A DNA stretch of 64,000 nt, taken from the NCBI RefSeq assembly GCF_001186125.1, contig NW_014040248.1, positions 12,045-76,044 of the forward strand, given 5' to 3'. How positions within the stretch are numbered: the stretch's first letter is position 1; each line of letters starts with the position of its first letter. The notes below the pieces were generated by a model. The model had not been told where the DNA came from. It did not search any database and saw only the letters and a list, made by a program, of their open reading frames with translations. The position numbers and the translations under genes were made by a program. This document shows, piece after piece, positions 4,301-28,493 of this stretch. This DNA comes from Sphaeroforma arctica JP610 (Eukaryota).

Positions 4301-4336
4301 TTAGCTCAGTATATAGGGCTGAAGCTACACTTAAAT

Positions 4337-5439
4337 TGTAATAGCCGGGCCTCCACATTAGACTTTATGTTATAAAGGTACTCTTAAAAAGTACGTAAAC
4401 TATAAACGCACTTTTAATAGTACAAGGAACTTAAGTTTCCTAAATGGTTTTTGACGGTTTTATTAATTAATACCTTTTCCATTTTACATATCAGATATTT
4501 GGACAAGGCCATTAAAGGGCCCCAGTAAAATACCAAACCTAAGATTTGGTCTAGTTCCATTAATAGAACTATATTTACTTTCCAAATCTATTTATATCTG
4601 AATACTTCGGTAGCGAGATGGCTCAACCGAATATAGGTTTCTAGGGACTATTAACGTTCCCTAGTTGATCCTCTGATCAGCCAACCAGATGTGCCAGTCT
4701 GATGAAGGCTAAGTCGGTAATTCTTGATAAGTGGCAAGTTATTGGTTAAGACAATAACTAGGGACATAAAGAGTATTTTTCTTTCTTTCTTTTTAATGGT
4801 TTTATTAATTAATACCTTTTCCATTTTACATATCTTTGGACGAGGCCATTAAAAGGCCCCAGTAAAATACCAAACATAAGAGTTGGTCTAGTTCTATTAA
4901 TAGAACTATATTTACTTTCCAACTGTATTTATATCTGAATACTTCGGTAGCGAGATGGCTCAATATAGGTTTATAGGGTCTATTAGCATTACCTAGTTTA
5001 ACCTTCGTTCAGCCATCCAGATGTGCCAGTCTGATGAAGGCTAAGTCGGTAATTCTTGATAAGTGGCAAGTTATTGGTTAATGCACTAACTATGGACATC
5101 AAGAGTTTTTTTTCTTCTTATTTTTCTTTTCTTTTCTCTGAAGATAAGATTTTATGAGTCTCTCGGATTCGCCCCAACGATACATACCATAGTTTCTAAT
5201 AGAGCGACAACGAAACTCTAAATAAAATCCCTTCGGCGAAAACAGTGCTGAGAGGATTATATATAGGCAATGTCTCAGCCTCACAGTGCCTCAGAGTATT
5301 GCTGTTTTCACGAGGCATACCTAACTTTACCAAAAGATTCATTTCGTTTATTTACTTCGAATTTCACGATACTTTGACTTAACCTAAGCGTTTAATTACT
5401 CTAAGGCGTTAATATCGCCTTGATCGACCGAATCTTACA
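4337..5439. mobile_element. Solo LTR (family A, copy 1) with internal tandem duplication of its 5' ~350 bp
   Basis: Starts TGTAA, ends TTACA, flanked by 4-bp TSD AAAT (4333-4336 and 5440-5443). Homologous to 6013..7061. About 4441-4790 is repeated at ~4791-5125. Confidence 0.88.
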
Positions 5440-5499
5440 AAATTACATTGTTCAAATTTACTTCTATATCGTACTTTCTTTCATTACAGTGGCTGAGCC

Positions 5500-5850
5500 G
5501 TATCGCAAGATTGTGAAAGACGTATTCTGTATAATATATGGTAAGAGTTTGAATTCGTGCAATGAATTTATCCCACTGTTTTGCGTGAGGACGAAGGGGG
5601 ATCAATACGGCGCCAATGGTTCTGGTAGAAATGACGCTGTCGATAAACTCTGAGGTATCTGACTAAATAGGATTAGCGTACGCTTTCTTTTTAAGCCAAT
5701 CAGTCTTACGTTGATCTGTGGCAATGTTGCCACCGGATGGACTGGCAACGTGGTAAGTGAGTCGTACGTTATGATGTGAACAAGTCAACAGTCGGATCAA
5801 AGTTGATGCGGGCCATGTCGTTTTGAATTCGGCAGTGCTTATTATACATT
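5500..5850 (-). pseudogene. Dam/DIRS-type amino-DNA-methyltransferase-like domain, disrupted
   Basis: MARINFDPTVDLFTS /frameshift/ NVRLTYHVASPSGGNIATDQRKTDWLKKKAYANPI*SDTSEFIDSVISTRTIGAVLIPLRPHAKQWDKF. Shows DLF(A/T)S..N, D..W, YANP(P)(W) (TAG in place of TGG) and VLIP....W with the expected spacing. Confidence 0.65.
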
Positions 5851-6012
5851 ATTCGGTGGACAATCATCCGACAGGTAGAATTTGGGTGGGGATGATAACT
5901 TTCTTTGCGACCATATTGAGTGTGGTCGTGGAATTAGACATAAGTTTGTATGATTGATGGAGTCGTAGGAAACGGTTCAGGAGAATAATCAGTAGCTGGC
6001 GCTACGGGAGGC

Positions 6013-7061
6013 TGTAAAATCCGGGCCTCCACATTAGAATCTTGTATTATAAACGTACTCTTAATAGTACGCAAAACGTACTCTTAAAAGTAAGTAAACT
6101 CTTTAATGGTTTTTAACGGTTTTTATTAATTAAATATCTTTTCCATTTTACATATCAGATATTTGGACAAGACCATTAAAAGATCCCAGTAAAATACCAA
6201 ATATAAGATTTGGTCTAGTTCTATTAATAGAATTATACTTAACCTTCCAAATCTATTTATATCTGAATACTTCGGTAGCGAGATGGCTCAACCGAACATA
6301 GGTTTCTAAGGACTATTAGCGTTGCTTAGTTTATCCTCCGTTCAGCCAACCAGATGTGCCAGTCTGATGAAGGCTAAGTCGGTAATTCTTGAGAAGTGGC
6401 AAGTTATTGGTTAATGCAATAACTATGGACGTCAAGAGTATTTTTCTTTATTCTTTTCTTTTTTTCTAAAGATAGGATTTTATGAGTCTCTCGGATTCGC
6501 CCCAACGAAACATACCAAAGTTTCTATTAGAGCGACAACGAAACACTAAATAAAACCCCTTCGGCGAAAACAGTACTGAGAGGATTACATATAGGCAATG
6601 TCTCAGCCTCGATTATTAGCGTTGCTTAGTTTATCCTCCGTTCAGCCAACCAGATGTGCCAATCTGAGGAAGGCTAAGTCGGTAATTCTTGATAAGTGGC
6701 AAGTTATTTGCAATAACTATGGACATCAAGAGTATTTTTCTTTATTCTTTTCTTTTTTTCTAAAGATAGGATTTTATGAGTCTCTCGGATTCGCCCCAGC
6801 GAAACATACCAAAGTTTTTATTAGAGCGACAACGAAACACTAAATAAAATCCTTCGGCGAAAACAGTACTGAGAGGATTACATATAGGCAATGTCTCAGC
6901 CTCACAATCCCTTAGAGTATTGCTGTTTTCACGAAACATACCTAACTTTACTAAAAAAACTCATTTCGTTTATTTACATTGAATTTAATTATACTTCGAC
7001 TTAACCTAAACGTTTAACTACTCTAAGGCGTTAATATTGCCTTGATAGACCAAAACTTACA
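6013..7061. mobile_element. Solo LTR (family A, copy 2) with internal tandem duplication of its 3' ~300 bp
   Basis: Starts TGTAA, ends TTACA, flanked by 4-bp TSD AGGC (6009-6012 and 7062-7065). About 6311-6610 is repeated at ~6611-6903. Confidence 0.9.
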
Positions 7062-8798
7062 AGGCAGGACAGGTGTCGTTGTACGCACATGTGGTGGTGA
7101 CGGACAAGTTGCGGCTGCCGTCTAGTTTGGGTACTGGTGTGATGGGTGTGACCCGCGCGGCTGATGCCGTGAGAGCAAGTTTTGTTACTTCAGTATCAAT
7201 CAACTTATGCCCCCATTGAGTGCTTGGTATGGTAAGAAAAATTGTGCCATTGGAAAAGTCATGTGACGTTGTGTGCCCCTTGATGTATATGTCGTAGCCA
7301 CTGTCATGAAATTTATATTGAGTGATTAATTGTTGTTTGACTGTTGGCCTTATATACGTAATACCAAGTTGTGGTAGTCGTCCGCGTTCTGTGACCATGC
7401 ATTCGCTGATGTCGACGAGCAGAAGTGGAAAGCGCCAGCCTCCATGTTGAAATGAATATAGGACGACTAAGGATATAGTAGTGGTAGCCTGGGTAGAATG
7501 ATCGGGGTTGCCTGTTGGTATAAGCATTAATACCCTCGATAGCTTAAAAAAGTACCTCTAGCATCACTATCAGTTATTTTCTCTAAAAGCACTAAGGGTT
7601 TATAGCCCACATAGCCTCATTGTAGATAAGCAGTTGTATGTGAGCCCTGCTAATACTTCAATAGCTATAAAGAAAGGTCCTCATGAAGGAACGTTATAAA
7701 AGAAAACGACATTGAATTTTGGAGATTGGCGGGAGGACCAAAATCATCAGGACAAGCAATATAACTAGTTACAGAACCGTGATTTGGGAAGTAAACATGT
7801 CTGATTGGAAAGATATGACTAAATCTGAGTTCTTGTTTTGAGATAAGACTGAATATGGGTTGTTGCTTGTTGTAAAGGAGTATATTGTGTTGAGACGAAT
7901 TTTACCCTAAAACCGAGGGACCCATAATATATTACCGCTAATAATTTGGCCGAATAATTGTCAGAATATTTTAGGGGCAAATGGTAGTTATTATATTCTA
8001 TAGATAGTTTACACTATTGTAATACATTAATTTTACGCAGGAAAGGTAAGCAAAATTAGAAATGTGTACATTGTAGTAAGAAAAGGATATATTACAAAAT
8101 ATGGACGCAATTCATCATATTATTTTATTGTAGAAATTCGTATATACAGAGAGTGAAAACGTAAAATAAAAGTTGTATGGCCAGAGGGCATACGCAGACA
8201 ATCCATGCCTGAACACCATGGCAACTTTTAATAGATAACCATTAAATGTCATGGTTGCTGCGGAGGACGTAGATTTCTTTGCAAATTTCAATGTGATGGT
8301 TGGCTTGATTTCTTTTCATGGTTTTGTTCCCAAATGACGTGGACTTACATGAATCGATCTGGGCAAAGTCTTCGTCGGACGCAGCAACTTCAGGGGGATC
8401 GGGAGCATAAGTGTCAGTTCGGGGGACGGAACGACATCACAGTGGAGAGTTAATGGCCACAGATCGTTAAGGGAGAGGACTAGATGGAGAACAGGTCTCG
8501 AGTCCGATTGAAACTCGGGACGCGGCGCAGGACACGGCATAGCAGGGGAGGAAGCACAGGTAGACTTTTATTTGTCCACAGACGCAGTAAAGGCGTCGGT
8601 GAGGTTAGTGAGGATGTCGTTGATCTTGATACCAGGAGCGATGCGCTCGCGCTTTACATAGCTGGCAGAAGAATCAAGAAAGGCAGAAGGGCTTCTTTGG
8701 GAGCAGGGGAGGAACCTGTATTTGGACTGGTCCGACAGCTTCGAATTAGGATCTATTTCAGACTTGGGGAATGGTGAATTTGCGTTCACCAAGACATA

Positions 8799-9147
8799 TG
8801 TAGAGTATGGAGAGTAGCTGAAAGATATGACCCAAAAGATACAATAGACCTCTTTTCAAATACAGTTATCTCAGCAAGGAAAAATCCCTAGTCTGAGACA
8901 TCCGAACTGAGTCTTATTTGCGTCTTCTAATTCACTAGACTCGGGGTTTTACTTTTCTAATTCACTAGACTACGGTTTCTACTTGAATGCTTCTCTCACA
9001 CGCGGGGTCCCGGTATATCTCTACCGCTAATAACACATATGACTAATATTAGGAATATTTGAATCCTCATTCCAACACTCAGTATTTGATGATTCTGTGG
9101 TTTTGGGTTTTGTATTGGCTTTTTGATAATCTGGTCCCTAGACTACA
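8799..9147 (+). mobile_element. Solo LTR (family B)
   Basis: TGTAG...CTACA termini, near-TSD CATA/CACA. A full-length inverted homolog at 15170..15488 confirms both ends. Strand is given only relative to that homolog. Confidence 0.75.
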
Positions 9148-9149
9148 CA

Positions 9150-10050
9150 CACGAGGTTTAATTTTTAAACTGTAAGTCTCTTAACCATTTTGAACAGGAA
9201 TTCACATCATGCTGGGCAACAATAAAAGCGGTAGCCCGATACCTCATTCATGAATGTGGTCTTGAACAAGGCATGCGCGTCTGAACGGAGATAACTACAA
9301 TACTGCCCATTAAAACTAATCAATTTATGATGATTGAGAATGGTGTATTCAACCACCAATGAGTCGTTCATGGCCTAAAGAGGTGGATAGCGCACATTTT
9401 TTCCAGTATCAGCAGAGATCTCTTTGGTGATGGAAACGAGTTTGTCATAATACAGGGAATTAGGGCGCATGAAAATATGACTGATCTTGTATTTGTGATG
9501 TACATCCGCCGTAGCCTCTTCTGCAACCCTGACAGCATTCTGAGGTCTTGACATTCAGAAGGTTAGCGACGGAAGCTACATTGACGAGAGGGACGCGATT
9601 AGTGCCTATTGAAATGTTGGTGGCTATAATTCCAAAGCCAAGTAAAAGAGGACGTTGTTCCTTAATTGGACAATATCAGTAAGATCCAGGGTAAAATGAT
9701 TTATTTGTTTTTTGCGGTTCTGAATTTGGCTCCCCAATTGATTGAGAGATTCGTCAGAAGTCCGTTTGGGGTAGAAACTTGTGGGAGACACTGTAGATTG
9801 TAGAAGTTATAAGGTTAACCGAACATTACCAGGGTACGATCCTGTAGTTTTTTTAAACTCGTATATAGCAATTGGAACAGTATCAGCACGTGTTATATCG
9901 GTTGGCAAGGCACAAATTCGTCATGGTTCCTTGACTGCAATTTGTTTAAGTGCGCTTATAGCAGCATGACCTAAAATAGTCGCATTGGAATAACAGCTAT
10001 GCTGTGTACGACCAGCATCTTGCTTGACTACATTACCTGAAGAAGATTGT
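9150..10050 (-). pseudogene. Degenerate ORF of unknown function, probably transposon-borne
   Basis: Long protein-like minus-strand reading with few stops (..QHSCYSNATILGHAAISALKQIAV.., ..KISHIFMRPNSLYYDKLVSITKEI..). No family recognised. Confidence 0.3.
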
Positions 10051-11244
10051 ACAATATGGATTTATTTGCCTCCAGAAACTACTTTAAAGTTTTGTAGTAA
10101 TGTGTTAACAAAGGATAGTATTATGTATGTCGTTTCTGCTTTAGGTTCGATTATTATATTCATGCAATACCGATTACGATGCTTCAAGAAATATAACTAG
10201 TAGTATATAACTTAGTGATATGGCGGCCGTATTCAGAAAAACGTGTACGCAAATACATTTGTCGACATCTTTTTTAGCTCCAACAAGTATACAATGCAGA
10301 TGCTGTCTTAGCTTTGGATTGGGCAAGGACTTATTGTCGAGAAGTTCTTTGAACTGGTCAGGACCGTTTAATGCAAACGCAATTATATTTTCTTTTGGTT
10401 TTAATGCAACGCTTGAACTGTTAGTAGTTGACGATACTTATAATTGTATAACCGATTTGAATGGATGTGCTAGACAAAACAACGGATTTTCGTATACGTG
10501 TGGAGCAATAAATAACTAGGTATCCGTTTGAGATCAAATCCTGCTCTCTTAGTGTATATTTATAAAGAATCTCCTTCTTATTAGTTTCCTACGCGGTACA
10601 GTCTTCACGCAGAAAAATGATTAGGCATCATTCACATGCTTGCGGTTAAAATCATATAAGTCGTCGTTGTCATCAATGTAGTTGCCACATAAATCGTTAG
10701 CGATAAGTATAGAAGCTCGACCAGCTGGACATTTGACATTTGAAACTGGATAAGTCGGGAATTCAAAATAGCCTGTTCATCAGGACCCAGCATTTAATAG
10801 TAACCCCGCCCGGTACAAGTAATAATTTTAACTCTAGTAAGATACATCCTATGTGGATAGCTGTTCACATAATTCTATATACATACATCAATAAAATCTG
10901 TCACTAGTTTGTTCATTTGTTTTAACGTTGGATTGATATAAATATCCAAGATCAGTAGATCCGTATAACATTTGTACAGCAGAATTGACACTTGATTCAA
11001 ACAAGGTATGAGCGACAATAGACATTGCAGTATACGTATTTTTATCAGAGTCCGACTCATTTGCAGTATTTGTATTAGTGTTCGACGCTGTAGTGTTATT
11101 ACAAGTTGACACAGTGGATACGAGCCGTCTGAAACAGTTGGCATACTATCGCGTAGAAACAGATTACCAAGGTGAACCAAAGGTTTTGATGTAGCTCTTG
11201 CTATACGATGGGTATACTTAAGTATATTTATTTTGTTTCCCAAT

Positions 11245-11650
11245 TATGGTTTTTCTGTACTATATCCCAGTTTGCCCTTTTAATATCTCATTGATTGCGA
11301 TATTGGTGTTTTGAATGCACGTCTGCCTACACAAAGGTGTTTTTGTCCACAAATACGTTGGTCCATGTGCAGTAATATTTACATTTTGGTTCGTATTCGT
11401 CGTCATGTATATATTTGAAATGACTTAGTGATTGAATTTGAATCAGTTGGGAGGGTATCTCTTACTATACGATGAGTACACTAATTTATCTAGTTTACCG
11501 ATAATGATTTTTCTGAACTATATCTAAGCTTGCAATTTTCATGTCTCATTGATTGTGATGATGGTGTTTCTTATACACGTCTGCCTGCACGAAGGACGTT
11601 TGGCACACGTCGGCCCATGTGCAGTAATATATTTCGTTGCCGTGTGCACA
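11245..11650 (-). repeat. Diverged direct repeat (~260-bp period) encoding two degenerate C2H2 zinc-finger-like units
   Basis: 11245-11380 aligns with 11500-11635. Minus strand reads YYCTWADVCQTSFVQADVYKKHHHH and YYCTWTNV..NTFV*ADVHSKHQY. Confidence 0.55.
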
Positions 11651-12499
11651 GCATAGCTGTTGTATATATTATCAATAAGAACACCCATCGAGATTGTATT
11701 CTAAATGTGGCCCACCAATGTGTTTACAATACACCTAAATTGCGAAGAAGTTTGGCTGAGACAACATATTTTTTTGTACCGCAAAACTATGTAGTGGAAG
11801 AAATGTCATCTCGCAGACTTAGATACACAATAACAAGTCTGGTTGTATGAAATTGCTGTATAGTAGCATTACTTAACTATACGACAAGGAAGAGTAATAT
11901 CACGAACTAATTCATGTACTATATTGCTTATTGTATTTTATATTGTATAGCAGTCTGTTTACTTCATCGACTTTTGTCAATGTATGCGCATCAGCATTAG
12001 CCTGAGATCACTGTCCTTTGCTGCCGGAATACAGATGGTGCCTGGTTTGATACTTGACATGCTTCCACAGCTTGAGCTGGTATAACAGGCACGTCGGACA
12101 GTGAATCGTAAACCCATCAAAGTACTTTACGTTGGAATTCGGAGGCGATTGTAGTTGACGATGATTGATGCCCTCCCTTGTAAGCCGCCAAATATTCCGA
12201 CGTTGATGAATCAGTCTTTCAGCAAAAGTCGGGATTCTGGGATTGGCCAGCGCATATTAGACTTGAATAAGAATTAATCGGACGATAACATGTTATAGTC
12301 ACTTAAGCCTTCTGAAGGTGAAGCAAGGGATAAGGTACTGCGCTTCACATATACAATTATGGACTCAATTGTACAGAACAGAAAGAATAAATCACTGACT
12401 GGTGTATGTATAAGTTCTCTAATGAGTTTGTAAATCTTGACTTAACTAACATTGACTTCTCAAGTGAAAGTCTCCTTCGCATAAATATGCAAGTTGGAG

Positions 12500-15100
12500 A
12501 CTTAATGACACAGACAAGACCCAAATTGAAGTCTTGCTAAAGCAAAGTCTAATTGAGACAAACTACGATGTAGCCCCTGTTAACCTTGCGCACTTTGCGG
12601 TCGATAAATATAATTGTGATGTATCGGTTGGTAAAACAAGAGTGACATTGTACCGGTCTCCGATTAATAAATTGATACCGCAACACATGTTTCCCTATCC
12701 TAAAATAAGTGAGATACTACGTAAGATGGAAGGCCAAGAGATATTTAAAAGCTGCACTTCATCAATTACAAATCCACGAGCCACATAGAAAGTACTAAGT
12801 AAGAAGCATCAATTTAAAGATGTACATGAAGGATTACGTATATTAACTTCATTCTTCCAACAAGTAATTGCAGACCTGTCGGAAAACGGATCTGTCTATT
12901 AAGACGCTATGTAAACTTTACTATGACAGCTCAAGAATACTTTAAACTCGTTAAAGAAGTTTTAAATTAATGAGAATAAATGCTCATTTGCTAAAGATAC
13001 TATCCACTTACTTGGTTACAAAGTATCTGTAGCAGGAGTAGATATTGATTATGGCAAGAAGCAATTTCTATTGGACTTATCTACACCGATAGCGGGAAGA
13101 GTGTATATAAACTCTGTGTGGGGTTGCTAGCTTCTTTTCGGATTCGGCACACTACCTTTCCTACTACCTACTACCTTTCACTTATTTACGACTTCACAAA
13201 GGGCTGTTGGGAAAGCTACGGAAATGTGATAAGTATTCAAATTAAGCAAAAGTAAAGAAATGAATGCACCGATCATGCAATACTCGGTAGACGGTGTTTC
13301 ATTCCGAGTAGCCACTGACGCTTCAGATCGAGCGATTGGATGCGTACCATATCAAGCTATAAATGTAAGCCACACTACATTCAATTTTTTAGTAAAAGTT
13401 ACAACAAGGGTCAACGGAATTACTCTACAGTTGAACGAGAACTTCTTGCTATTGTAGCTGCGCTAAGTCAATTCAAAGAGTACCTATACGGAAACTATTT
13501 TACTGCCACCTGTGATCAAAGTCTTTAAGATACTTAAAAGATATGAACTCTGATTCGCAATTGGTGAGCCGCTGGCATGATATAGTTGCTAAGTTTGCCT
13601 TCAAATTACACACATTCCAGGAATAAATAACCCTCTTCCTGACATGCTCTCTCGACTTGTCCCGGACTTTTAGACAAATGTGTTCCCGTTTGACCTGTCT
13701 AAACATAATGCGTGAGCAAACTCGCCATGGTAACTAATATTCCAGTTGTTAAATTATGCTAATGTATAGCTTCATCTACCATACCGTTGTGTTGTCCCTT
13801 ACGTAAATCCGATCGCTGGCAACGTGAACTTATTAGTATGATACAAAACAAACCTGTATAGGTTGACCGTGAAACCAAACAAGTGCTCGTATCCAGGATC
13901 TCATTTTGATAAAAAGACACCACAGAGACAAGCCATGACTTGTCGCATTGGTCTTACAGGTACTACTAAATGAAAACCCTCAACCGATTTCTTATCTAAA
14001 CTAGAAGAATCTAAACAGTTTGATCTTAAACTCCAGACTCGCAGAATACCGTCGAGATTACGCCGATTGAAACTGCATTAGATCGTAAAAACGTGGAACT
14101 AGCTAAGGCCATGGAATTTAGACTCTAATCACTAAGTAATCCTAAAGCTCGCACTCAACTGCCTAATGCGCTGCTTAAAGAACAGCCAGGAGTTGCGAAA
14201 CAACCAGTGTAATTTGTTATCTATTAATCGCAGGAAACTACTACTACTGACATTGAAGTTGCCCTAAGTATCGGGGAGATGGTTCATTCCCAGTGTTTCT
14301 CAAAATCTGACATTCTTAGAATAGCTTGAAAGTAAAGTCAGGCTCATTCATAATTTAAATTATCAAGCTTACGAGCATAGTTACAAAACGGATATTTGTG
14401 AAGGCTTGATCGTCTGGCGCTGAAAGCAACCACACGTGTGCGGTATATCGACGCTGCACAGATTATGAAAAGTATCAGGTCAAGCGCTTCGATTGGGCAC
14501 CTCTAAAAAGTGTGCCAAAAGACGATCCAATGCGCCGAGTATAAATCAATTTGGTCAAACTTCCGCGATTCATGCATGCGGGCGATGTATATATCTGTCA
14601 TTTCTTGTGTGTGGCTTCGGGTTACAATTTGTTTTGTGATAACGAACAAACGTCCGCAAACAATTGCAGAATTATGCTATCCCGTCTTTAATGACTTCGG
14701 CTTTCCTCGAGTACTATATTTTGATTATGGTAGTGAGTTCTCTACCGATGTAATGAAGGCACTCATAATTGTATCTGGTATGACCCAAAGGCATGTAGTC
14801 CATATAGACCTCAACCGCAGGGCGCGTACGAGACACGTCATACAGAACTCAGAAACTCTTGTAACCCGTACTAGAGAACGTTGAGGATATCCGATATATG
14901 GCATTACCATTTGAAATAGTTTCAAACTGAAATGAATAGATGCATCCTCAAACTGGAACACTTACGTTTCACAATTAATTTTTTTGGCCGCCATAGTAAA
15001 TTGTAAATGCAACATTCGATACTAAAACAAAAGATCGAGCATATGCAAAACGTTTGTTACCCCTTTTACTCGAGCAAACAAAACTCTCGTCTTGCTTTTC
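12500..15100 (+). mobile_element. Highly decayed Ty3/Gypsy pol (RT, RNase H, integrase)
   Basis: PINKLIPQHMFPYPKISEIL (RT start); FRVATDASDRAIG and FFSKSYNKGQRNYSTVERELLAIVAALSQFKEYLYG (RNase H); FNDFGFPRVLYFDYGSEF (integrase core). Order RT-RH-INT. Confidence 0.9.
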
Positions 15101-15169
15101 AAAACTAGAGATTATGTTAACATCATCAACAGAAACATCAACGCTACATATCATCTCTCTAAGACAATC

Positions 15170-15488
15170 CTAGTATCTAGGGACCAGATTATAAAAAAAG
15201 CCAATCCAAAACCAAAGGATTATCAAATACTGAGTTCTGGGGTCTGGATCCAATATTCCTGATAATAGAGTCATCAGTAATATATGGGGATTACCGGCAG
15301 ATGATAACGGGACCCCCGTGCGAGAATAAAACACCCAAGTATAACTTAAGTCTAGTTCAGGATCACAAATCACAAATAAAGACTCAATGTCCTTCAGCCT
15401 AGGGCTTTTACCTAGCTGGGAGATCCGCACTTGAGAAGTGGTCTATTGTTTCCATTGGTCGTGTCCTGAGCTACTCTCAAACTCTACA
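15170..15488 (-). mobile_element. LTR family B copy, inverted relative to 8799..9147
   Basis: Reverse-complement alignment along the whole length (tctagggaccagattat...caaatactgagt...agctactctcaaactctaca). No TSD seen. Confidence 0.75.
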
Positions 15489-17629
15489 TTTTTAACAATA
15501 TTTTTACTGCGTGAAGTCAAACAATCTAAGCGGGCTAGAACATAGCACTGAGCTTTATTAATATATCAGAGAAAGATAGTAAGAACGAGGAAGGCAGAAG
15601 AATGTGGAGATCCCTGGAGCCCGGAAAGTTGAGAGAAAAGAAGAACTGGTGTGGTGTTAACTAACTTGCACACTGGAACTGGAAAAGAAAGAAGAAGCTC
15701 CCTCCTTGAGAACAGACACCAGGAGCCGACCAACAAGGTAGTGGAATGAACTAAGCGGAAATTTAACACGACGGGGTAACCCTCACAGGATGGCCCATGT
15801 AAATAAGCACCAAACGTGATTAAATTATAGTAGTTGGGAGAATTCAAATCCTAGTAGCAAAGTGAAGATCAGTGTCAGTGTTGATTTAATTGATTGATGT
15901 TAAGAGAATTCAATCCCCATGAGAGACATCAATGTATGGACAATATATAATCAACAGTACATGTAGAACATTTCATGTCTAAAATATATGAGGTACACAA
16001 TAACACATACACAAACATGTGCTACTAAATTAGGTAGACACATGAACCTTGCCACAAATAAATTGTTGAGGTACAGGGCTGTTCTTCTAAACTCCATAGA
16101 AGAAAGCCATCAATAGTTATCCTTTTGGGGCAATTATACACGACGAGAATAAGGACATAAACGACAACACAATGTATAAACGAGCCTTCTATATATAATA
16201 TTTTAGAGATAAGAATAATGAAGGAAGAGTCTTTTGGGTGCCTACACATGTCTCAGAAACATCCATGGAATCTGATTGATGGCTATACATGGATGATAAT
16301 AATAAGTATATATGATGCAGAAGTTAGAAATAAGTAACACTGTAGAGGATGTCTAAACTGATACAGAATAGATACAGGACGTACATTTAAAATACTGAGT
16401 AACATCTACCAAGCACAGGCACAAAGCGTGAGATGCATATATTCTGGAATACAAAATAACACAATTATCTAGAAATATAAATATCCTGGCGCACAAGATA
16501 CCAACATCAATTGGACATAGTTCACGTAATCAGATAAGCAGCCATCTAGAGATAGCTTGAACATTCAGAAAAGCCTTAGTATACATATATGCTTTTGATC
16601 GAATTAGATGCGAGTATGTGAATCAAGAAGGCAGGAACAGAAACATCTATAAGAGCCCAGAACATCTCAATTACAGGGATGACGTAGAAGTGCACAGAGC
16701 AACTCTATTGCAATGATATAATATACATAGTAATACTCACACACCTATAGATCAGAAACAAGATAAGGGAACATATGTTACAAAAATATACATGACAGGT
16801 AACAAAAATACACATATTGATACACAATATACAAGATACAGATTTCGTTTAAAAGCATGTATAAACCCTGCAATGAATAACACATTGCACATATCAACAA
16901 CAGTGATTACACACACACTCACATCTAGAATTCATAGATGTAGATTTTTCATGAACGAATCAAATGACCAAACCACTAGGCACGAATAGATAGACATACA
17001 CAAGCACCATATCAAGCAGTTAGGTATAGAATACTATCAGGAACAATATACCTACTTAGATGACACAATAAATGTATCGACACATCGCATTTCGATACAT
17101 GACACACACAAAAAAATGCATCCAACAGTAACAAATAAACATATATACTCACATAGGCCTAAAATACATAGAGAGACACATTAATGTGGACACGTCACTT
17201 AAAAGGAATATATTAAATCTAAACACAATAAATACAGGATGAGGCACGCGTGAGAAAAAAAACCCAACCGACATCCCGCAATGCACGGACGAAACGGTAA
17301 ATGTGTATATCAATCACATACATACCCATGCACAAACCTATAAGTTCACACATATGTGACATATAATAAATAGATATATTTTATTGATTGATCTATCGCA
17401 AATTACAATAGAGAACGCTAACTACCAATCTATAAGGACGACTATATACAGCGGCTATAAGAGAACGAGATACAAAACTCGGAGTCGAGATTCTTGGCAA
17501 CAAGAAACTAGATTAGAGAGTGCACAAATAACCACATTACTGACCTTCTGAAAAACAAGAAGTTCGGAACAAGACGTATAGTAATATTCACAATACAATA
17601 AACCAAAACAAGAATTGTGTTCCTTGTGA

Positions 17630-19960
17630 ATTATGATAACTTCCTTTATTTTTAGTAGCACAAATTTGTCTTGCTCGAATTGGTAATTAATTGGTCTAAG
17701 CATATTCTTACTTTCTTGAGGAGACTTGTTTGGGCATGTTCACCTGTGGATAAGAATGCTAAATACACCGGTGTTGGTGTTGTGCTTTTGTACATTGACC
17801 ATCTGTAAGCCACCTGTTCACATTTGGATCCGTTTGTGGAATGTACTTACGTGGTACGAGGTTTTCTTTGGCATGCCTCATTTATCCGACATTGATTTCA
17901 TTTGTAGGCACAGTGGCTTTGGTGCCTGACAGGTTGCAATGTACGTCAGGATGTATATCTGCATTGGTTTCTAAGATGTCTACAAGTGAATCTCTGAACC
18001 CTTCTTGTTCGTGCTTTGGATCTTCCTCGTGTGAAATGAGTAATTACTCCCATTTTGCGTATGTTGGAAAAAGGGATTTATAAATCCTGCTATGTATACA
18101 CCTATGTATGGAAGAATGTTCATACCTTTCAAACAAGAAGTGTTGATGCCTTCTTAACTGGTAGATCCAACACTTTCGAAATAGTGAGAGGTTTTTCTTC
18201 CTCTGTAATTAATGTCGCATACTTCGGTCGATCCTGCACTTTGTATTCTCGCACCTGTTTGTGCTAATCGTATGTAGCCTGATTGCGCTCTGACTGATAG
18301 ATATAGTTCAGCTACTATACTTTTGTCCATACATGAGCGTTGTGCGCCTGAGTCTTCGAGTGCCCGGTATGTATTGCCATTAATTTGTATGTCAATGGAT
18401 AAAGGTTGGTAATTTATAATTTGTATCATTCGCATTTATTAAAGTTTCTTCATTTGTATTTACATTTGATCTGTCAGCCAGAGCAATCACGTTTGCTTCC
18501 ACCTACGAGTTGTTTTAGTGCTCGGCACCTTCTGTGATTTCTTCCACCTTGCCAGATGTAATGGACAGTCTTGCTATCTGCACATCCTTCTTGGCCCGCT
18601 CCTCAGCCTGCTTGGCTTCATTCACTTTTTTGTTGTTGTTGGGACATTTACTGTACCGATGTGGGGCTGGCATTACCAGGCAATAAGGACATGGACGCTC
18701 TTCGCGTGCCTCCTTCTTCTCCTGTGCCTGTCCCACTGGCTTATTTTGGTTGGGTGCACCATTGTCTGGTTTATACCGTTTGTTAGCATTGGTAGTGCTA
18801 TTTTCTGCTTGGACGGCTGTTTGTGCGTTATGCTTGTTTTGCGCTCACAACTGATCCTTCAACATACGCTCTCCTTGCAACACTGCCGCCATTCTTATGT
18901 GTGACTCAGTCATTGTATGAAACTTGGTGTGTTCCATAACTGACAAGTACCCTTCACTCCCAAAAGGTCGCTTATCTCCTTTGATTAGAATATCCACCAG
19001 TGTTTGCTGTCCGTAGTACTTAAGTGCTTGGTACCTTTGTACCTTGAGGAGTTGAAAGTGTATGCGTGTCTTGTCTGAGTTGCGGTAACGCTTCTCTAAC
19101 ATCGCCTTTGCCTTACGCGCACGCTCTATGCGCACTTCGACGTTCAGTTTCTTATTTTGCATGTCATTGAGAAACTTCTTCAACAGACAGTCTACTGGAT
19201 ATGGCATAAGTCTGTCAATAATGATCCTATTGAATTGCACAGGTTCCTTGAAGTGCTTAGTTTCATGCGTCTCAGAATCTCTTAAGTTTTTGAGTACTGA
19301 TTTGGTCTTCTCCGTTGCATCAGTGGAATCTATTAGGTTTCTCACTAGTGCTGGGTACTGACACAGTGGCATGGACTTTGCTAAGAATAGGTTGCTACAT
19401 TGTATAGTAAACTTTATGATATCTTCACAGTTTTCCATTCTAAAGTAACTATCTTTTGGCATCTTAGGAAATTCTGAAGTCTTTAGTAGTTTTGCAAGAG
19501 GTGGTTTATTTATCTGGTCGCCTAACTGTGAACGGATGAGCTCTAACTCGCTAATGTACTGACTTATTTGAATGAGATCATCTTCCTTATCGTCACCACA
19601 GTCGTTGATTGCCAGATCATATCGTCGTCTGAGTTCTGCATCCACTAGTGGTATGCGTCGCTCTGGCTGTTGGTCATGTATGCCTACCCTCATCTTGTGT
19701 AGAGTTGGTATAGGCACCGGCACTGTTTGTTCCAACTTGGACACAAACCGACTCACCAGAACATAATTGCCTTGACAGATACTCTTGTCTATTTCTAGAC
19801 GCATTGATGATACTATGGGTACCCCAGCCGGTGTAGGCTGGCCAGAACCACTGCCTGGGCTTGCCCCCCCCCCCCCCCCACCTGGGTTGGCTCCCACGTC
19901 ATCCGCGCCTTCACCTCCTTCCCCACCACCATACACGCCTGCTCTGGTTGATGTTAGCAT
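17630..19960 (-). mobile_element. 3'-truncated Ty3/Gypsy-like element: gag, aspartic protease, start of RT
   Basis: 371-aa ORF 18845..19960 continues in frame past one TGA into CPYCLVMPAPHRYSKC (zinc knuckle, ORF ends 18515). Protease ALEDSGAQRSCM in 18154..18435. RT N-terminal RPINYQFEQDKFVLLKIKEV at ~17640-17700, after which similarity stops. Confidence 0.85.
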
Positions 19961-20301
19961 TTTTAGATGTCTGCGTTGGTGTGTGGGTGTTATGGGTTAT
20001 CAATAAAGACTCTTGTTATATTTTGTGCGAAAGCGCGCGCTTCACCCCCCTTTTCTTTAGTAATAATTCATATAAAGTAAGTAAATTGGGATATATTTTA
20101 CTTACTAATGCAGTGTTGTTGCTTTGCTTCACTTCCGCGGGAAGTGTTTACCGTTCTGTCTAGTACGGTAGCTTGTTGCTTTATTCCCTGTATTTAAGAG
20201 GGGTGAAAACCGTGTTTGTTAGTCAAACTTATTTCGTCACGTGTTGACTTACTTGTGCTTATTCCGTCATATGAGAAATTAATTTCTCATGTGATCTCAA
20301 T

Positions 20302-20470
20302 GAGATGTTCGGTCCTAGTGACGTCACCTGGAGAAGTTCGGCCCTAGTGACGTCACTCTGGGATGTTCGGTCCTGTACCGAACTGTGTCGATGTTGACGT
20401 CACCAGTTGATGTTCGGGTCTGTGCCGAGATATGTTTATGTGTGTTTGCACTTGATGTTCGGTCCTTTGC
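20302..20470. promoter_or_regulatory. Short repeat cluster (GATGTTCGGTCC core) with three TGACGTCA palindromes upstream of the minus-strand gag
   Basis: About five GATGTTCGG(T)CC-like copies. TGACGTCA at ~20318, ~20348 and ~20395; GTCACGTG at ~20236. Lies 340-500 bp upstream of the gag ATG at 19960. Confidence 0.4.
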
Positions 20471-23400
20471 ACTATGATAGTGTGTCAGTGACCATTAATT
20501 TTGTTTATATTTGTACCACCGTATTTGTACCAAACTTTGGATTGGTTGCGTACGCGTTGTGTGTTAGTGTCTTCATGTTTTTAACCCTCTACTGTGTTCG
20601 CACTGTTTGTTTGAGCGAGCTCCTGTGTGTGCTGCGGATGTTCTGTATCCTTAGTGCTATGTCTCGCTGTTCCAATTAGTATGTGCTTAGTATCTCTTGA
20701 TAGCTTATCATGTACTTCTTATTGAATCAGTGATGATACTGATCGCATATGTTGTCTCATTTTGTTAATGTTCGACTATTCTTGCCGGAGTGGCTAGCCT
20801 TAAAAGGGTTTTAAAACCCTAAAGTGAATGCTGATCGCTTTTTATGTCGAATTCTTGAGCTTATCGACTATTTTTGCCGGAGTGGCTAGTCTTAGCGTTT
20901 ATAATAACTTAATCTTGTTGATAGTCATCTCATTGAATCTTACTTGTGAATTTAAGGTCTTATTCTTGTGTGTCCACTTGTAATGGCTGTGCTTTATGTA
21001 ATATTTGGCTATTCATTGCTTTATTTTAGCATTAACAACCAGTTGTGGTTCGTATATGCTTTGAGTTTCTATGCCTTAATTTTCAGATTACTTGTGATTT
21101 CTTGTTGATCAATCGTGGTCTCGTGTTGGTCACGTAGTTTGTGTTTATGCGTGAGTACTCGTGTATGTTCTTTAGTCTTTCTAGATATCTGTGGCTTGTG
21201 ACCTTGATATAACTCCAGAGTTCATGGGCTGCCTTCTTGTTGCTATTGATTTCACATTGACTTGTTATCTCGTGTGCTTCTTGAAGCAATTCGTGTTTTT
21301 AAAGCAATTCGTGTCTTTATGTGTCTAGGGTTACGTGTTTATTATTACTTCTCAGTGTAGTTGTTTGAGTCGTGTATAATTGTTCTAATGCTTGTGTAAT
21401 TATGTCGTTGTACATGCACTTCTATGGTGGTCTGTGTGCGATCAATCTCTGAGCTATTTCAGCTTTGAAATGGTTGATCTCTATGCAATTTCCACTCTGG
21501 AATGTTTATTGTATACTTCTTGTTAGTGTGTGTGTTTCTTTGTTGCCGTATACTGTTGTTTTGCAGTTGTTTTGGGTACTGTTCGTCCCTTGCCAGTAAA
21601 TGCTGATGTGTTGTACTGCTATTGCACTTCACGTGTTCATGTATTATTGCATGCGTGATCTGATCGATCTCCGCTAATTTCCTTCGTGTTGTGACTGTTT
21701 TATATTACGTGTGTTGTTTTTATCTCACAAATATTGTATAGGCTTCTTGTTCTTGCTTCTTACTTGCCCTTCTGCCTTATTAGCAATAGGTACCACTTGA
21801 TCCTCTATGATTCTATGTGAACCTAATCTTGCGATTCTATCATCATACTTGGCCACCCTCCTAGATTTTCACTGCTCTTGTTGTTAAGCCTACGAGTGAC
21901 TCTCTTACTGTGTGTCAAGTTGCGCTATATTCAAGTGCCAATGCAGTTTCTCTATTCTGAGATGTCTCTATTGTTTCTAGGTGATTGCTTATGTTGCGGC
22001 AGGTGATATGTTGTAGTTCGGGGCCCTCTCTCTAAATCCTAGCATTGAGTGACACTTTTATATATAGATTTTTGATGTCCCCAACATTGCTAATAAATCA
22101 CTCGTGACTGGTTGGTGTTATTTTCATTCACTCGTAGAACACTCTTTCCCTCTTGACTCACTTCCAGTTGGGTTATTTACATAAGTTCTTCTCTGTCTGT
22201 TTCTTGTTATCCGGTTTGAATTCTGCTCACCGGTTCTTCTGTGTTTGAGGTCTCGGCTGAGTTCTCTTAATCGCTTGTAATTCTTTCTTCTCCTCTTCGC
22301 CTTTCGTTGGTGTTTGAATCCTAGTTTATATAAATAAAGATTTCTATCTCTTTATCTTGTTGATTCAAATGTTCCATTCCTAATTCCAAACTCAGTATTT
22401 GATTACTCTGGGTTTTGGCCAGCAGTCCGGGATCCGCTGTTGTATGTTTACAACCAGGATGCGGTGTTGCTAGCAGCTCGGCTCCAAGAGCTTCATGACT
22501 TTATGCGAACGTTTATAATAACAGCGTATACTGGTTTGTTGGGAGAGTTATTGTTGGATGATCTGGATAAAAATGGGTTATCGTCGGCAGCAGCAACATC
22601 AACAACGATGTTAACTGCTGTTATATACAACCGGGAGGGGGGGTTCGGGGAGGAAGGAACTTCGAAGTACAGGGAGCAAACTCATTTAAAGGAGAAAACT
22701 CCGCTTACACAAGGGGGAACCCTCACCAACCTGTGATGGGTTCGGCTGGATATCAGTACAGTCATAATGACCGTTATACTACACCCCCACGTGGTGACTC
22801 ACGTGGGTTTGACGGATCCAAAGAACGTTCTTACACCCCTAATAGGGCATATAGGCCGGTGGATGAGAAGACACCGTCCCCGGCACCGCCAGCGTGTGGT
22901 AAGTGCTCGTTGAGGCATCGGAGTGCATCTTGTCCGGTATGTGGCCTTTGTAACAAACTGGGCATTGGCGAACAGACTGCCCATCGAAGGTAACTACGGT
23001 TGCGGTGGCGCAGACTAAGTCTAAATGACTAGTCAGTAACGGTTGGAGTGGTCCAGTGACCCATGTATTCTGCGAGGATTAAGCGCTAAGTATTTATAAT
23101 GATACTGGGGCTAGACCAGCCATGTTGTCCACAGAGTTTGCGATGCACCATCGGTTTGAAGTGACGGATATTGACCCTATCTTTATTACGGGATATGGGG
23201 GTGATGGTCGTATGTCTTTGACTCAACAAGTAGAATTACCCTGCTGTTGGAAGTTTAGGATTCACACGGGGAGGCTACATATCATGAAGCAGAGGAAATT
23301 ACGTTTCTTCTGGCGCCATGGATACCTCATGATTGTACTATTTTGGTTGGTCTGGATGTCATGGAACACGAGAGGTTGGGAGCGACTTGGGGTACATCTA

Positions 23401-25249
23401 CGGACCCAGCTACATTTCGGTTGCAGCTTTCACGGGTTTCCAATGATAATTTCCTACAGTACCGACCTCCTGAGGTGATTTATAAGCTTGAATCTTTGAA
23501 GCGTAATAAGCATGTACCGGATATACATGATGAGTTAGATGAATATGACTTTACTGACTTAAAATATCATGCTCGTATATGTAATTTTACTGTGGCACAA
23601 TTACCAGATCTTAAGGATAAGTATAATCGTAATCGCATTAATAAGAAAGCTCCTAAGTTTATTATGGAAGTCGAATGTGAGATTATGTTAAAGCCAGATG
23701 CCATGCCCCAGCGGCGGGTATATGAGACAAAGGATCCGGTCAAGGTGGGTGTGGAGACGCGTAAATGTGATGACCTTCAAAGTGTGGGACTCGTCGAGCC
23801 GGGCAACAAGTATAGCAAGTGTTGCTTCTTGCATCTTCGGGTGGTTCCACAGGATGACAAAGGATATCGATTGTGTATCGACTGGAGTCCTCAGAACTTG
23901 GAGTTCCATGTGCTGCCTGTGACACTCCCATTGGAAGCGGACTTACTTAACCATGCACGTAGAGCGGTGATACAAACGGTTGTGGATTTAGGTACGGCTT
24001 ACCATCAAATACGTTTGTCTGAGGATTCTCGGGGAGTTATTGACTTTCTACTCAGCGGACGGGCGATACTGGCAACTGTTATGTTTGATGGAAGGTGTTC
24101 TGGGTGTTATGATAAGCAACACTCACCCAGTCGTTGTTTCAATCAGAACGGACGTTGATGCTTTACATTGATGATATGATTATTGCACAGCATCGGCTAG
24201 CACATAAATCGTATATAGATACATTGCGTAATCATTGGCGGGAACAGCATCGGAGACCAAACATTTGTGAGGCAAATGATGTACAGTTGCAGCCCCATAA
24301 GAGTCAAATATCGGTTGGCCGGGATATTTTGGATCATGGGAGTATGATAGATATTGAACGATTGCAGGCGCTTCTTACGGCACCAGCGCCAGTGAGTAAA
24401 CCAAAGGTGGCATCGTTGTTGGCAATGCTTGCGTGGTGGTTAGGTATGATACCCAATTACTCCATAATCATGGAACCAGTGATTCGTTTAACCAGGAAGA
24501 ATGAGGTGTTCAAATGGGATACGGCTTTATGTGCCTACTCAAGATCAAGAATTTGTTGAATATAACCTTGGAGTAACTACAGAAACCAGATGTCATCAAT
24601 GGAGTCGAGAATACGAGGCTGCAATTGTCCACGGGGGCTACAGTTCTAGAAGTTTCGGATTTGGAAACGGGCACTCCAGCAATCCGGTACCAGACGATGG
24701 ATTCTGGCGATTTCTCGCGAATTGAGGAAGTGGTTGAAATCCGACGACGAGCTGAGTCACTGGGGTACGTGGTCATCAAAGAGTTAGTGCTGGATAAGGG
24801 TATTACAGTACATGACCATGATTGCTTGTTCCCAGTGATGTTGATGTCTAGTACATTTAGTGCGGCTCAGAAAAATTATAGCACCACAGGCCGTGAATTT
24901 ATGGGGTGTGTATATGCCACGAAAAAGGTATTGCATATATTACAGCGTTCGAAGGTGCCGTGTGTATTGTATACAAATTACATGTATTGTGCGTAACCCT
25001 TCTCGATATACACAGGAGGATACTATACAGACTCGGCGATGGCTCAGAGCATGCAATGTGCTGCAGGAAGTTGAGTATGATTTCATATATGTACCAGGGA
25101 AGGTCAACTATTTCTGAGATTATATGTCCCATTGTGCCGACAAGATGGATGAGTTGATGACCCCACTTGATCGACGAGCTCAGTGGAAGGACCCGGTAGA
25201 ACAGGCAAGCGATACTGTATTTTGTGGAGCTGTGTTACAATTTGATCTT

Positions 25250-25670
25250 TCGGATTGGCAACTGAACACGCGCTTGGTATACCACTCGCAAGCTATCTTT
25301 TGGGTTGTGTTACAGGTGGAAATGTTTGCGTCGGAAGCTAACCATGTGCTTGCTAACTATCCTAGCATTGAACCTGGTGGCGGTGCGATGAGATGTGATA
25401 CGCTTGCATTTGAAGGGCATTGTTAGTTATACCAATCCGTCATGGAAGTTGACTGCTAAATTTGTTAATCATGTAGCAATGACTGATGGTGCACAGGGTG
25501 CCTTTGTGTCCTCTTTTGGCCGAATGAGCCTTGGATGAGGGATTTGGTTCCGATGTTGCAGGCTTGGCCGTCTGTGATTCCTCATGCAGAGGATGCCTTT
25601 TTGTTAAATGGCCAGTATGCAGTTGAGGTTCCCCCGTGGGATTATACGTTGTTGGTATATATTAAAGGGG
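25250..25670 (+). pseudogene. Dam/DIRS-type amino-DNA-methyltransferase-like domain within Gypsy pol (two frameshifts)
   Basis: SDWQLNTRLVYHSQAIFWVVLQVEMFASEANHVLANYPSIEPGGGAMRCDTLAF / GIVSYTNPSWKLTAKFVNHVAMTDGAQGAFV / WPNEPWMRDLVPMLQAWPSVIPHAEDAFLLNGQYAVEVPPWDYTLLVY. YTNPSW is at 25428-25445. Confidence 0.8.
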
Positions 25671-26452: not shown

Positions 26453-26633
26453 TGTAGTAAAAGTCCCCTTAAAACACTATCAGTGTGGAGTTAAAAATTA
26501 GTTTACAATTAATTCACACGAGGTGAATTATTTGTAGACCACGTAGACAATCAAATATAAGAATAAATACACCGCACTGAGCCTCAGGGAGACTCAGTAG
26601 ATTTTAGTATCGTATTTTGATGTGTTTACTACA
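26453..26633. mobile_element. 181-bp nested solo LTR or MITE inside the Gypsy pol linker
   Basis: 9-bp inverted termini TGTAGTAAA / TTTACTACA, near-TSD GTTC/GCTC, internal AATAAA, more AT-rich than its flanks. Confidence 0.65.
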
Positions 26634-28493
26634 GCTCCCTTAGGCACAGGGGATTTGGTATACAGGGCTGGCTTAGAGGTGGAGGCTCAAGTGGATTCAG
26701 CAGATGTCTTTCAGAATAATCAGCAGTATTTGCCGGTGGAGCCTTAATCTGTTCGGTACTCCATTAGCCACTGCCCGTCGACGGACAACCCGTTGTCATC
26801 CAGGAAGCCACGTATGCGACGATCGGAGGAGATACCGGATGAACATATACCAGTATGTCAGGATGGGGAGGACATTTATTGCAGACTCCCGTTTACAACT
26901 TTGATCGGTAGGTAGATTAGTATCCCCGCAGATACTTTTTCAGGTGATCTGGAAATACCACATGGGGTTTAGTCATGTGTTGGTAGCGGACCATTTGAGA
27001 GTTCTTATACGGAAAAAGTACAGTTGGCATGTTCTTCGTACTTTGTTGGATTTGATTATTGGTAATTGTGAGTGGTACATTCGTTTTAGTATGGGTTATG
27101 GTCGAAAGCGTGGTCTTCTCCGACAACCGGATCGTGCAACACGCCTTGGGAAGCTGATGGACCTTGATGATTTGGTACCCACGGGGAATGCTGATGGGTA
27201 TAAGTATGTGTTGGCTGCCCAGGATGGTTATTCCCTGCGGGCATTTACCACGTGTTTAAAAAGTGGTGATCATGTAGCTGACACGTTGATCAAGATTTGT
27301 GACGAGCAGCTGCGACCACATGTGGCGGTCAATGACTATGTGATGAATAAAGATAATGTTTTTTTATTGTGAGAAGTTCTCTGCGTATGCCAAACAGACG
27401 GGAGCCACCATTCATTATGTGTCTACTAATGAGCATGCAGGTAATGGATGTGTGGAAGTGTTTCTAAGCACGGCTAAATATTGGTTACCTCGATCATTGT
27501 GTGTTGATATGCATCACGCATGGCGACATGAGGCCCCCTATTTCACTACAAATTATAATGCTACTTATTCGTCGGTTATTCAGATGGAACTGCATACCCT
27601 TGATGCTGGCCGATTTTATACCGTTTATATACTCATATTGTGGATCATCAAATTGAATTTATGCTTGATGAATACCTTGTTTTTGATACCTCTACAGTTT
27701 GCATGGGTGACCCCTTTGGAACGCACGGCGTCGGAGAACATTCAGATGGCGCGAGCGGCTCAGAAATGACATGCTGATCTCATTCGGGTGGATTGCTCAA
27801 TGATTGGGGTAGGCCGACAGGTTTTGTATCGGCTGATAAAAACCCCTGACCATAAACTGTCCAAGAATTGGGTGGTACCTGCTATTGTGATAGCGCTATT
27901 ACCCCTGGTGATTCAATATATCAAGGATGTGGGGTTGAACAAGGAGTATAGGGTTTACATCAAGAACCTCAAATCATATCGACCTCCGGTCGGTTTGGTT
28001 GAGAAGTTGCCTCAGGGAAATGTGTCGACGTCGGTGTTTGGTTATTACATGTTCTTTGATTCGAATACGCAGTCTATGGAACGGTAGATGTTGGTTGAAG
28101 CATTCTGGGAATACCCGGTAGCTATTCGTTTTTAGGATAGCATGAATAGTAACTATCGTTGATGGGTGCGTCTTAACACAGGCAAATATAAGCATAAGTG
28201 TACACATCAATGGTGGAAAGAGGATGAAGATTTTCTCCCACAGCGCCCTGCGGAAGTTACAAATATTCAAGGAATGCGCACTGCACTTAATCGACTTTAT
28301 CGTTATGTTAGAGACCCTTTATTAAGACAGGATTCGTTCGAAGCATGGCGTTCAAAGTATGAGGCCGAACGGTTGACTCAGCACTCGGTGGATGCAGAAC
28401 ATTGGGATTTGTATGCTATTATGGACAGGGAGGATTGAGCTCAATTCCATAGGTTTTAGTCCTGCGTTTCGATATCGCATAATCTGGCGGGGC

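What the first reader, a model, noticed from the sequence alone, without database searches (positions are those of the whole stretch)
5500..25670. Two unrelated retroelement classes in one 26-kb block appear to carry the same type of methyltransferase
Seen: the LINE-associated and Gypsy-associated domains share motif order but have no obvious nucleotide identity. Inference: repeated recruitment of amino-MTases by retroelements in this host, suggesting selection for self-marking, for example mimicry of a host 6mA active-chromatin mark or protection from silencing or restriction.
Basis: inference. Interest (0 to 1): 0.72.

Follow-up and report, generated by a model that had tools for sequence, protein, structure and literature searches.

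The report
Adenine methyltransferase inside a Copia retrotransposon
Two dead jumping genes in this block each carry a phage-style adenine methyltransferase domain: one is a Gypsy element of a kind described in 2026, while the other is not part of the nearby LINE but likely belongs to a Copia element, a class for which I found no such domain described.

Summary
Both domains are Dam-like and broken, but the LINE link is wrong. MT1 (minus, ~5980-5480) lies between two solo-LTR-like insertions, 2.7 kb from a separate, 5'-truncated LINE. Its only real relative among 1.84 billion representatives is a Sphaeroforma arctica protein, P0001 (E 2e-10). P0001 has a Pfam Dam match, a Ty1/Copia protease and pre-integrase region in front, and a CxxC-GK motif behind. 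The window repeats the protease-to-Dam order colinearly. MT1 is therefore likely a Copia remnant with Dam set into the integrase zinc-finger region (motif IV NPIW). MT2 (25256-25663) lies between RNase H and integrase of a Ty3/Gypsy remnant and has weaker support (score 80; 120 shuffles reach 61). MT1 and MT2 share 20 of 111 residues. Gypsy-Dam elements and the 6mA-mimicry model are in a May 2026 preprint, and this scan noted them on other genomes. Copia-Dam appears in neither: 0 mentions in the preprint's main text, 0 notes in two look-ups. Limits: two sequences, no intact element, no activity shown.

The parts
490..2700 (-). 5'-truncated LINE remnant, a separate insertion with no MT inside it (ends approximate)
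   Evidence: Pfam RVT_1 E 5.6e-6 at about 2593-2267. Summed contig depth is 10^4-10^5 over 401-2800 in run X10 against about 130-150 on unique stretches. No Dam hit above shuffles here.
4337..5439 (-). Solo-LTR-like insertion just downstream of MT1 (TGTAAG...TTACA, 4-bp target duplication ATTT)
   Evidence: Termini and duplication; 63 of the loose ends in run X10 lie at 5439.
5482..5976 (-). MT1: decayed pre-integrase start (first His) followed by a Dam-like domain; DLF 5786, NPI-stop 5674, PLRP 5599; 4 frameshifts and 3 stops in the alignment
   Evidence: Aligns to P0001 148-312, 66 of 162 identical, score 214 vs maximum 46 in 20 shuffles; phmmer E 2.1e-10; phage-only profile top hit.
6013..7061 (-). 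Second solo-LTR-like insertion of the same family (88% identical to the first), splitting the Copia-like pol between protease and pre-integrase; 4-bp duplication GCCT
7116..7571 (-). Decayed Ty1/Copia-type protease region; probable catalytic remnant DSDA at 7571-7560 (by eye)
   Evidence: 7454-7116 aligns to P0001 15-133, 38 of 113 identical, score 110 vs maximum 46 in 20 shuffles; tblastn E 7e-7; P0001 1-185 assigned to Pol_BBD/gag_pre-integrs clusters; motif seen.
22571..23475 (+). Ty3/Gypsy remnant: gag-like piece with Cys/His motif and protease piece with DTGA (both by eye)
   Evidence: Translations; no Pfam hit.
23259..24556 (+). Ty3/Gypsy reverse transcriptase, frameshifted
   Evidence: Best PDB hits 4ol8 (RT/RNase H) E 4.6e-5 and 7q5b (Ty3-G Gag-Pol) E 1e-4; the second piece had no meaningful hit.
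24577..25130 (+). Ty3-type RNase H
   Evidence: Pfam RT_RNaseH and RT_RNaseH_2, E 1.4e-4, below gathering cut-offs.
25256..25663 (+). MT2: decayed Dam-like domain; EMF 25319, NPSW 25434; broken by frameshifts and a stop
   Evidence: sequence. Single contigs with 0 differences span 21500-26493 in 3 of 4 runs and 22027-26523 in the fourth, so the breaks are not assembly errors.
26453..26633 (.). Short, highly repeated insertion between MT2 and integrase
   Evidence: Depth peak and loose ends at both edges in 4 of 4 runs.
26905..27766 (+). Integrase remnant (zinc finger and core start)
   Evidence: Weak: PFV integrase E 0.7 over 77 residues; no Pfam hit. A paralogous 6386-nt contig is colinear from RT to this region.

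Best explanation
The block holds two dead LTR retrotransposons that each have a Dam-like adenine methyltransferase domain inside pol: a Ty3/Gypsy remnant with the domain between RNase H and integrase, and a likely Ty1/Copia remnant with the domain just after the protease, within the integrase zinc-finger region. The LINE is an unrelated neighbour. In the active ancestors the domain would have been made with Pol and packed into the virus-like particle. In the Copia design it would stay attached to integrase after cleavage and would act on the element's own cDNA or RNA-DNA hybrid, likely depositing 6mA that host AMT1 could maintain as permissive chromatin. Shown here: domain homology, order, decay and separation from the LINE. 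Inferred: Copia membership (from protease and pre-integrase similarity only), packaging, attachment to integrase, catalysis and benefit.
For: P0001 (SARC_09551, S. arctica) is one record holding a Copia protease/pre-integrase region and Dam. For residues 1-185, Atlas feature scores were 0.92-0.94, and 5 of 10 structure rows met the bar for Pol_BBD, in clusters with gag_pre-integrs, rve, RVT_2 or Retrotran_gag_2. For Dam: Pfam E 1.2e-5 over 189-296, PHROG 111 E 0.0021, phage N6-MTases E 2e-3. The window repeats this order colinearly at about 34-41% identity once the intervening insertion with its 4-bp duplication is discounted. Two diverged loci therefore share the design, which argues against a gene-model chimera or one chance nesting. 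MT2 lies between Ty3 RT/RNase H and integrase on one contig. A paralog keeps a similarly long RNase H-to-integrase spacer (1602 letters vs 1858 here, 181 of which are an insertion). The preprint reports a Ty3-type DAM-LTR lineage in ichthyosporeans including S. arctica, with more 6mA and more expression than other LTRs.
Against: Only two Copia-Dam sequences; no integrase core, RT, RNase H or LTR pair was found for that element. P0001 has no Pfam hit for Pol_BBD or gag_pre-integrs, shared-feature counts were 130-154, under the tool's 170 guide, and TM by query was under 0.5. The His-His segment alone does not score above shuffles. Motif IV is NPIW, not the NPP triplet that the preprint finds almost invariant. 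The preprint's E. coli assay showed no methylation. MT2 is missed by all family libraries and the phage profile. No relatives were found in viral, metagenome or prokaryote contigs.
Confidence: 0.68

Rival explanations
1. The Copia-borne domain is a real part of the family but no longer methylates; it binds nucleic acid or SAM and acts as a targeting or shielding module on integrase.
For: NPIW in both P0001 and MT1 departs from the NPP triplet; eukaryotic DAMs gave no 6mA in E. coli.
Against: Motif I (DLF), the Asn-Pro and the aromatic of motif IV are kept in P0001; the negative assay may reflect the wrong substrate, as the authors say.
Confidence: 0.3
2. The Dam piece fell once, in frame, into a Copia copy from a DIRS or Gypsy neighbour and was carried passively for a while, with no function.
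For: Only two sequences and a singleton cluster; the region is a dense nest of insertions.
Against: P0001 reads through protease, Dam and CxxC as one protein, and conserved columns between the two loci cluster at motifs. That would be unlikely after drift to about 40% identity, though part of this divergence is decay of the window copy.
Confidence: 0.15
3. MT1 belongs to the LINE.
For: Same strand, and upstream of the LINE RT; earlier scan notes report LINE-borne Dam in other genomes (untested here).
Against: 2.7 kb apart, with repeats and unrelated unique DNA between. The LINE is highly repeated while the MT1 island has unique-sequence depth. MT1 continues the Copia-like protease region.
Confidence: 0.02
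4. MT2 is a chance resemblance and only MT1 is real.
For: No library or phage-profile hit; hhalign probability 2%.
Against: Score 80 vs mean 47.3, sd 4.6, maximum 61 in 120 shuffles, with motifs I and IV in register; position agrees with published Ty3 DAM-LTRs.
Confidence: 0.07

Closest known systems
DAM-LTR retrotransposons, ichthyosporean lineage (bioRxiv 10.64898/2026.05.21.726589; whole main text read)
   Same: Ty3/Gypsy element with a Dam domain in pol and no chromodomain seen; S. arctica is a named host; same mimicry model. MT2 fits this kind.
   Different: All LTR carriers in the main text are Ty3/Gypsy-like; 'copia' and 'Ty1' occur 0 times. MT1/P0001 has the domain after a Copia-type protease and NPIW in place of NPP. 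Supplementary figures and tables could not be seen.
DIRS retrotransposons with MT (PF05869) (PMC3783388, passages)
   Same: Same Dam family of domain inside pol.
   Different: DIRS have RT-RH-MT plus tyrosine recombinase and lack protease and DDE integrase; both elements here show a protease region.
Phage N6-adenine methyltransferases (PF05869, TIGR01712, PHROG 111; HP1 orf13 type)
   Same: Motif order and 19-25% identity to the P0001 domain.
   Different: Stand-alone phage genes with NPPY; here a pol-embedded domain with NPIW or NPSW.
CopiaMBD (PMC6673714, passages) and retrotransposon DNMTs (PMC5890265, passages)
   Same: Retrotransposons, including Copia, that captured a methylation-related domain in pol.
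   Different: A 5mC reader or 5mC writer, not an adenine methyltransferase.

Membership tests
Dam-like N6-MTase (PF05869), MT1 | Profile similarity to the family | tested here: met
   Via P0001 (Pfam E 1.2e-5, 25.5 bits, under the 28.1 cut-off) and directly by a phage-only profile; no direct Pfam hit on the broken copy.
Dam-like N6-MTase (PF05869), MT1 | Motif IV NPP(Y/F/W) | tested here: not met
   NPIW in P0001, NPI-stop in the window.
Dam-like N6-MTase (PF05869), MT2 | Profile similarity and motifs I and IV | tested here: inconclusive
   Significant against P0001; not against libraries or the phage profile; motif IV reads NPSW.
Dam-like N6-MTase (PF05869) | Methyl transfer to adenine | not testable with these tools
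   Both copies are broken; no assay possible.
Ty1/Copia (MT1 carrier) | Copia-type protease (Pol_BBD) followed directly by the pre-integrase zinc-finger region | tested here: met
   Atlas assignment of P0001 1-185 and colinear match of the window; no direct Pfam hit.
Ty1/Copia (MT1 carrier) | Integrase core, RVT_2 and RNase H downstream in that order; paired LTRs | tested here: inconclusive
   Not found downstream in the window; P0001 ends shortly after CxxC; the genome is not held.
Ty3/Gypsy DAM-LTR (MT2 carrier) | PR-RT-RH-IN order with Ty3-like RT | tested here: met
   Ty3 RT best hits, RT_RNaseH, integrase weak, contig continuity.
Ty3/Gypsy DAM-LTR (MT2 carrier) | Placement in the ichthyosporean DAM-LTR clade by tree | not tested
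   No reference sequences could be fetched.
Ty3/Gypsy DAM-LTR (MT2 carrier) | Paired LTRs | tested here: not met
   No flanking direct repeat in self-blastn of 1-33000 at E 1e-6; decayed or truncated copy.
LINE (MT1 carrier) | MT contiguous with the LINE ORF2 or its 5' region | tested here: not met
DIRS | RT-RH-MT with tyrosine recombinase and no protease | tested here: not met
   Protease regions precede both domains; no recombinase hit in the Pfam scans of 400-4346, 7060-12101 and 18001-30002.

The most novel reading that the evidence does not exclude
A Ty1/Copia lineage captured a Dam methyltransferase independently and inserted it between the His pair and the CxxC of the integrase zinc finger, so the enzyme rides with integrase on the pre-integration cDNA. 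That would make a third retrotransposon superfamily converging on adenine methylation, co-resident with Gypsy DAM-LTRs in one host, and one missed by screens built on RVT_1.
Probability: 0.55. Interest if true: 0.7.

Novelty: new variant of a known kind. Interest (0 to 1): 0.48.

Why it matters
The 2026 preprint argues that Dam domains moved repeatedly from DIRS into Gypsy elements in hosts with 6mA. A Copia carrier would add a transfer across a much deeper divide, in what is probably one of the same hosts, which strengthens the case that the host's adenine-methylation landscape selects for the domain. Its position at the integrase zinc finger points to a testable substrate, the integrase-bound cDNA, which could explain why isolated domains were inactive in E. 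coli. The Gypsy half and the mimicry idea add nothing new, and both copies here are dead.

Tried and rejected
My first by-eye reading, that MT1 lay between Gypsy RNase H and integrase, was dropped after P0001 showed the upstream ORF to be protease-like. Word-based homolog searches found nothing for 7060-7557 (0 of 475 candidates), MT2 (0 of 363) or the Gypsy pol frame (0 of 3282). Two of the three representative hits (P0002, P0003) are repeat-driven noise and were dropped. Locus searches found no confirmed relative: metagenomes, viral contigs, prokaryote genomes. The single-sequence fold of P0001 was unusable (pLDDT 30.7), so no fold search was run. PDB sequence searches gave nothing for 7060-7557 or P0001. 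A tblastn of the MT2 N-terminal ORF against phages gave only chance hits. A DLFASRN-like motif at about 10060 (+) was tested as a third Dam and not supported. No RNA holder was listed. No genome is held, so no census, tree or dN/dS was possible. A degenerate motif scan of viral contigs was not run, so distant Copia-Dam relatives remain unsearched by that route.

Full report
Setting. The first 30 kb of the window are a nest of decayed mobile elements in a eukaryotic genome, and the rest is rich in AT/CA microsatellites. No whole genome is held. The host is probably an ichthyosporean; this is inferred only from the closest protein relative, which is from Sphaeroforma arctica.

MT1 is real. On the minus strand, motif I (DLF, 5786), motif IV (NPI-stop, 5674) and PLRP (5599) are present across frameshifts. 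A phmmer search of 1.84 billion representatives gave 3 hits at E 0.001 or better. One is a true relative, P0001 (E 2.1e-10, 42% identity); the other two are repeat proteins. P0001 residues 189-296 match Pfam Dam (E 1.2e-5, under the gathering score), PHROG 111, TIGR01712 weakly and annotated phage adenine methylases. A profile built from 8 phage proteins without P0001 ranks MT1 first in the 64 kb (61.7; 15 shuffles reach 48.8).

MT1 is not part of the LINE. The LINE RT belongs to a 5'-truncated, highly repeated element at about 490-2700, whereas the 5440-6012 island has the depth of unique DNA in the runs laid (summed contig depth separates repeated from unique DNA but is not a copy number). 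The island is bounded by two 88%-identical insertions, 4337-5439 and 6013-7061, each running TGTAAG to TTACA with a 4-bp target duplication. These are later solo-LTR-like insertions into an older element.

What carries MT1. P0001 15-133 aligns to window 7454-7116 (38 of 113 identical, score 110, 20 shuffles reach 46). P0001 148-312 aligns to 5976-5482 (66 of 162, score 214, shuffles reach 46). The two pieces are colinear across the insertion. For P0001 1-185 the ESM Atlas returns Pol_BBD and gag_pre-integrs clusters by features (0.92-0.94), and Pol_BBD in 5 of 10 structure rows, with clusters that also hold rve, RVT_2 or Retrotran_gag_2. A protease followed directly by the pre-integrase region is the Ty1/Copia order (established knowledge). 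By eye, P0001 reads His-x3-Gly-His at 155-161, then Dam, then CxxC-GK at 354-362, so the domain appears to sit inside the integrase zinc-finger region. The window keeps the first His and lacks the next few codons. Against this: Pfam gives no direct Copia hit on P0001 or the window frames, the Atlas shared-feature counts are 130-154, the His segment alone is not above shuffles, and no integrase core, RT or RNase H was found downstream.

MT2. The element at about 22570-28400 has Ty3-like RT (best PDB hits 4ol8 E 4.6e-5 and 7q5b E 1e-4), RT_RNaseH (E 1.4e-4) and a weak integrase match (E 0.7). Between RNase H and integrase, 25256-25663 matches the P0001 Dam region (tblastn E 4e-4; score 80 against mean 47.3, sd 4.6, maximum 61 in 120 shuffles) with EMF and NPSW in register. 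Libraries and the phage profile miss it, and hhalign finds motif I only. Contigs from 4 of 4 runs span RT to MT2 without a difference, so the breaks are genomic; some of these runs may be the window's source. A diverged paralogous contig keeps a 1602-letter spacer at the same place, though its spacer sequence was not visible. No LTR pair remains.

The two domains. They share 20 of 111 projected columns and no nucleotide similarity. That excludes a recent exchange but cannot tell two captures from an old transfer. They are not pieces of one DIRS element, since DIRS lack a protease (PMC3783388 passages).

Mechanism. Shown: homology, order, decay. Inferred: in active ancestors the domain is part of Pol and enters the particle; in the Copia design it likely stays fused to integrase and meets the cDNA; 6mA laid there could be kept by host AMT1 and favour transcription. 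The last steps are the model of the preprint, which found more 6mA and more expression on DAM-LTRs in S. arctica and A. whisleri but no activity in E. coli. The NPIW motif leaves open a non-catalytic role.

Literature. bioRxiv 10.64898/2026.05.21.726589 (whole main text read; supplements closed) describes DAM in DIRS and in five LTR lineages, including an ichthyosporean Ty3/Gypsy lineage. It also mentions Euglena elements with LINE-like RT but Ty3 structure. 'Copia' and 'Ty1' occur 0 times in its main text. Its supplementary figures may bear on the Copia claim, and P0001 may be among its orphan DAMs. Searches for a Copia-borne Dam (listings, plus passages of PMC5890265, PMC11673190, PMC12344493, PMC6338049, PMC3783388 and PMC6673714) found none; the library lacks most subscription papers and Repbase. 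Earlier scan notes report Gypsy-Dam many times (138 notes held the words), LINE-Dam in other genomes and Copia with a cytosine methyltransferase between protease and integrase. No note held copia, Dam and adenine together, and none lay on this sequence or genome. These notes were not tested here.

Verdict. The Gypsy half and the hypothesis are published. The remaining new point is a likely Ty1/Copia carrier of Dam, supported by two sequences and no complete element.

Noticed in passing
window 2766-4040 (+): Unique-depth stretch with decayed plus-strand coding pieces, including a YSDPPG..MY motif that I recall from some fungal DNA-transposon proteins (recalled, no call supports it); no Pfam hit.
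   Followed up: partly
window 12468-14881 (+): Another Ty3/Gypsy remnant (RT_RNaseH E 5.8e-13) with a shorter RNase H-to-integrase spacer and no Dam hit above shuffles (score 50 at 13876); a Dam-less comparison element.
   Followed up: partly
window 18150-19996 (-): 383-aa open gag-like frame followed by an aspartic protease (Pfam gag-asp_proteas E 6.9e-5), with no evident pol downstream; possibly a non-autonomous or deleted element.
   Followed up: partly
window 10050-10330 (+): DLFASRN and VYANTF motifs resemble a third Dam but are spaced about 63 codons apart against 38 in the others; not supported by profiles.
   Followed up: yes
window 8798-9142 and 15176-15489: Two 67%-identical copies of a roughly 340-bp repeat in opposite orientation, MITE-like.
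   Followed up: no
window 4040-4336, 7740-7888, 26453-26633: Further short, highly repeated insertions inside the decayed elements.
   Followed up: no
window 31900-32438: A 540-bp imperfect palindrome, 73% self-complementary.
   Followed up: no
window 35775-36545 (+): 256-aa open frame with Lys/Pro/Ser/Thr repeats and a TFxxxxYxR-like C-terminal part; probably a host gene.
   Followed up: no
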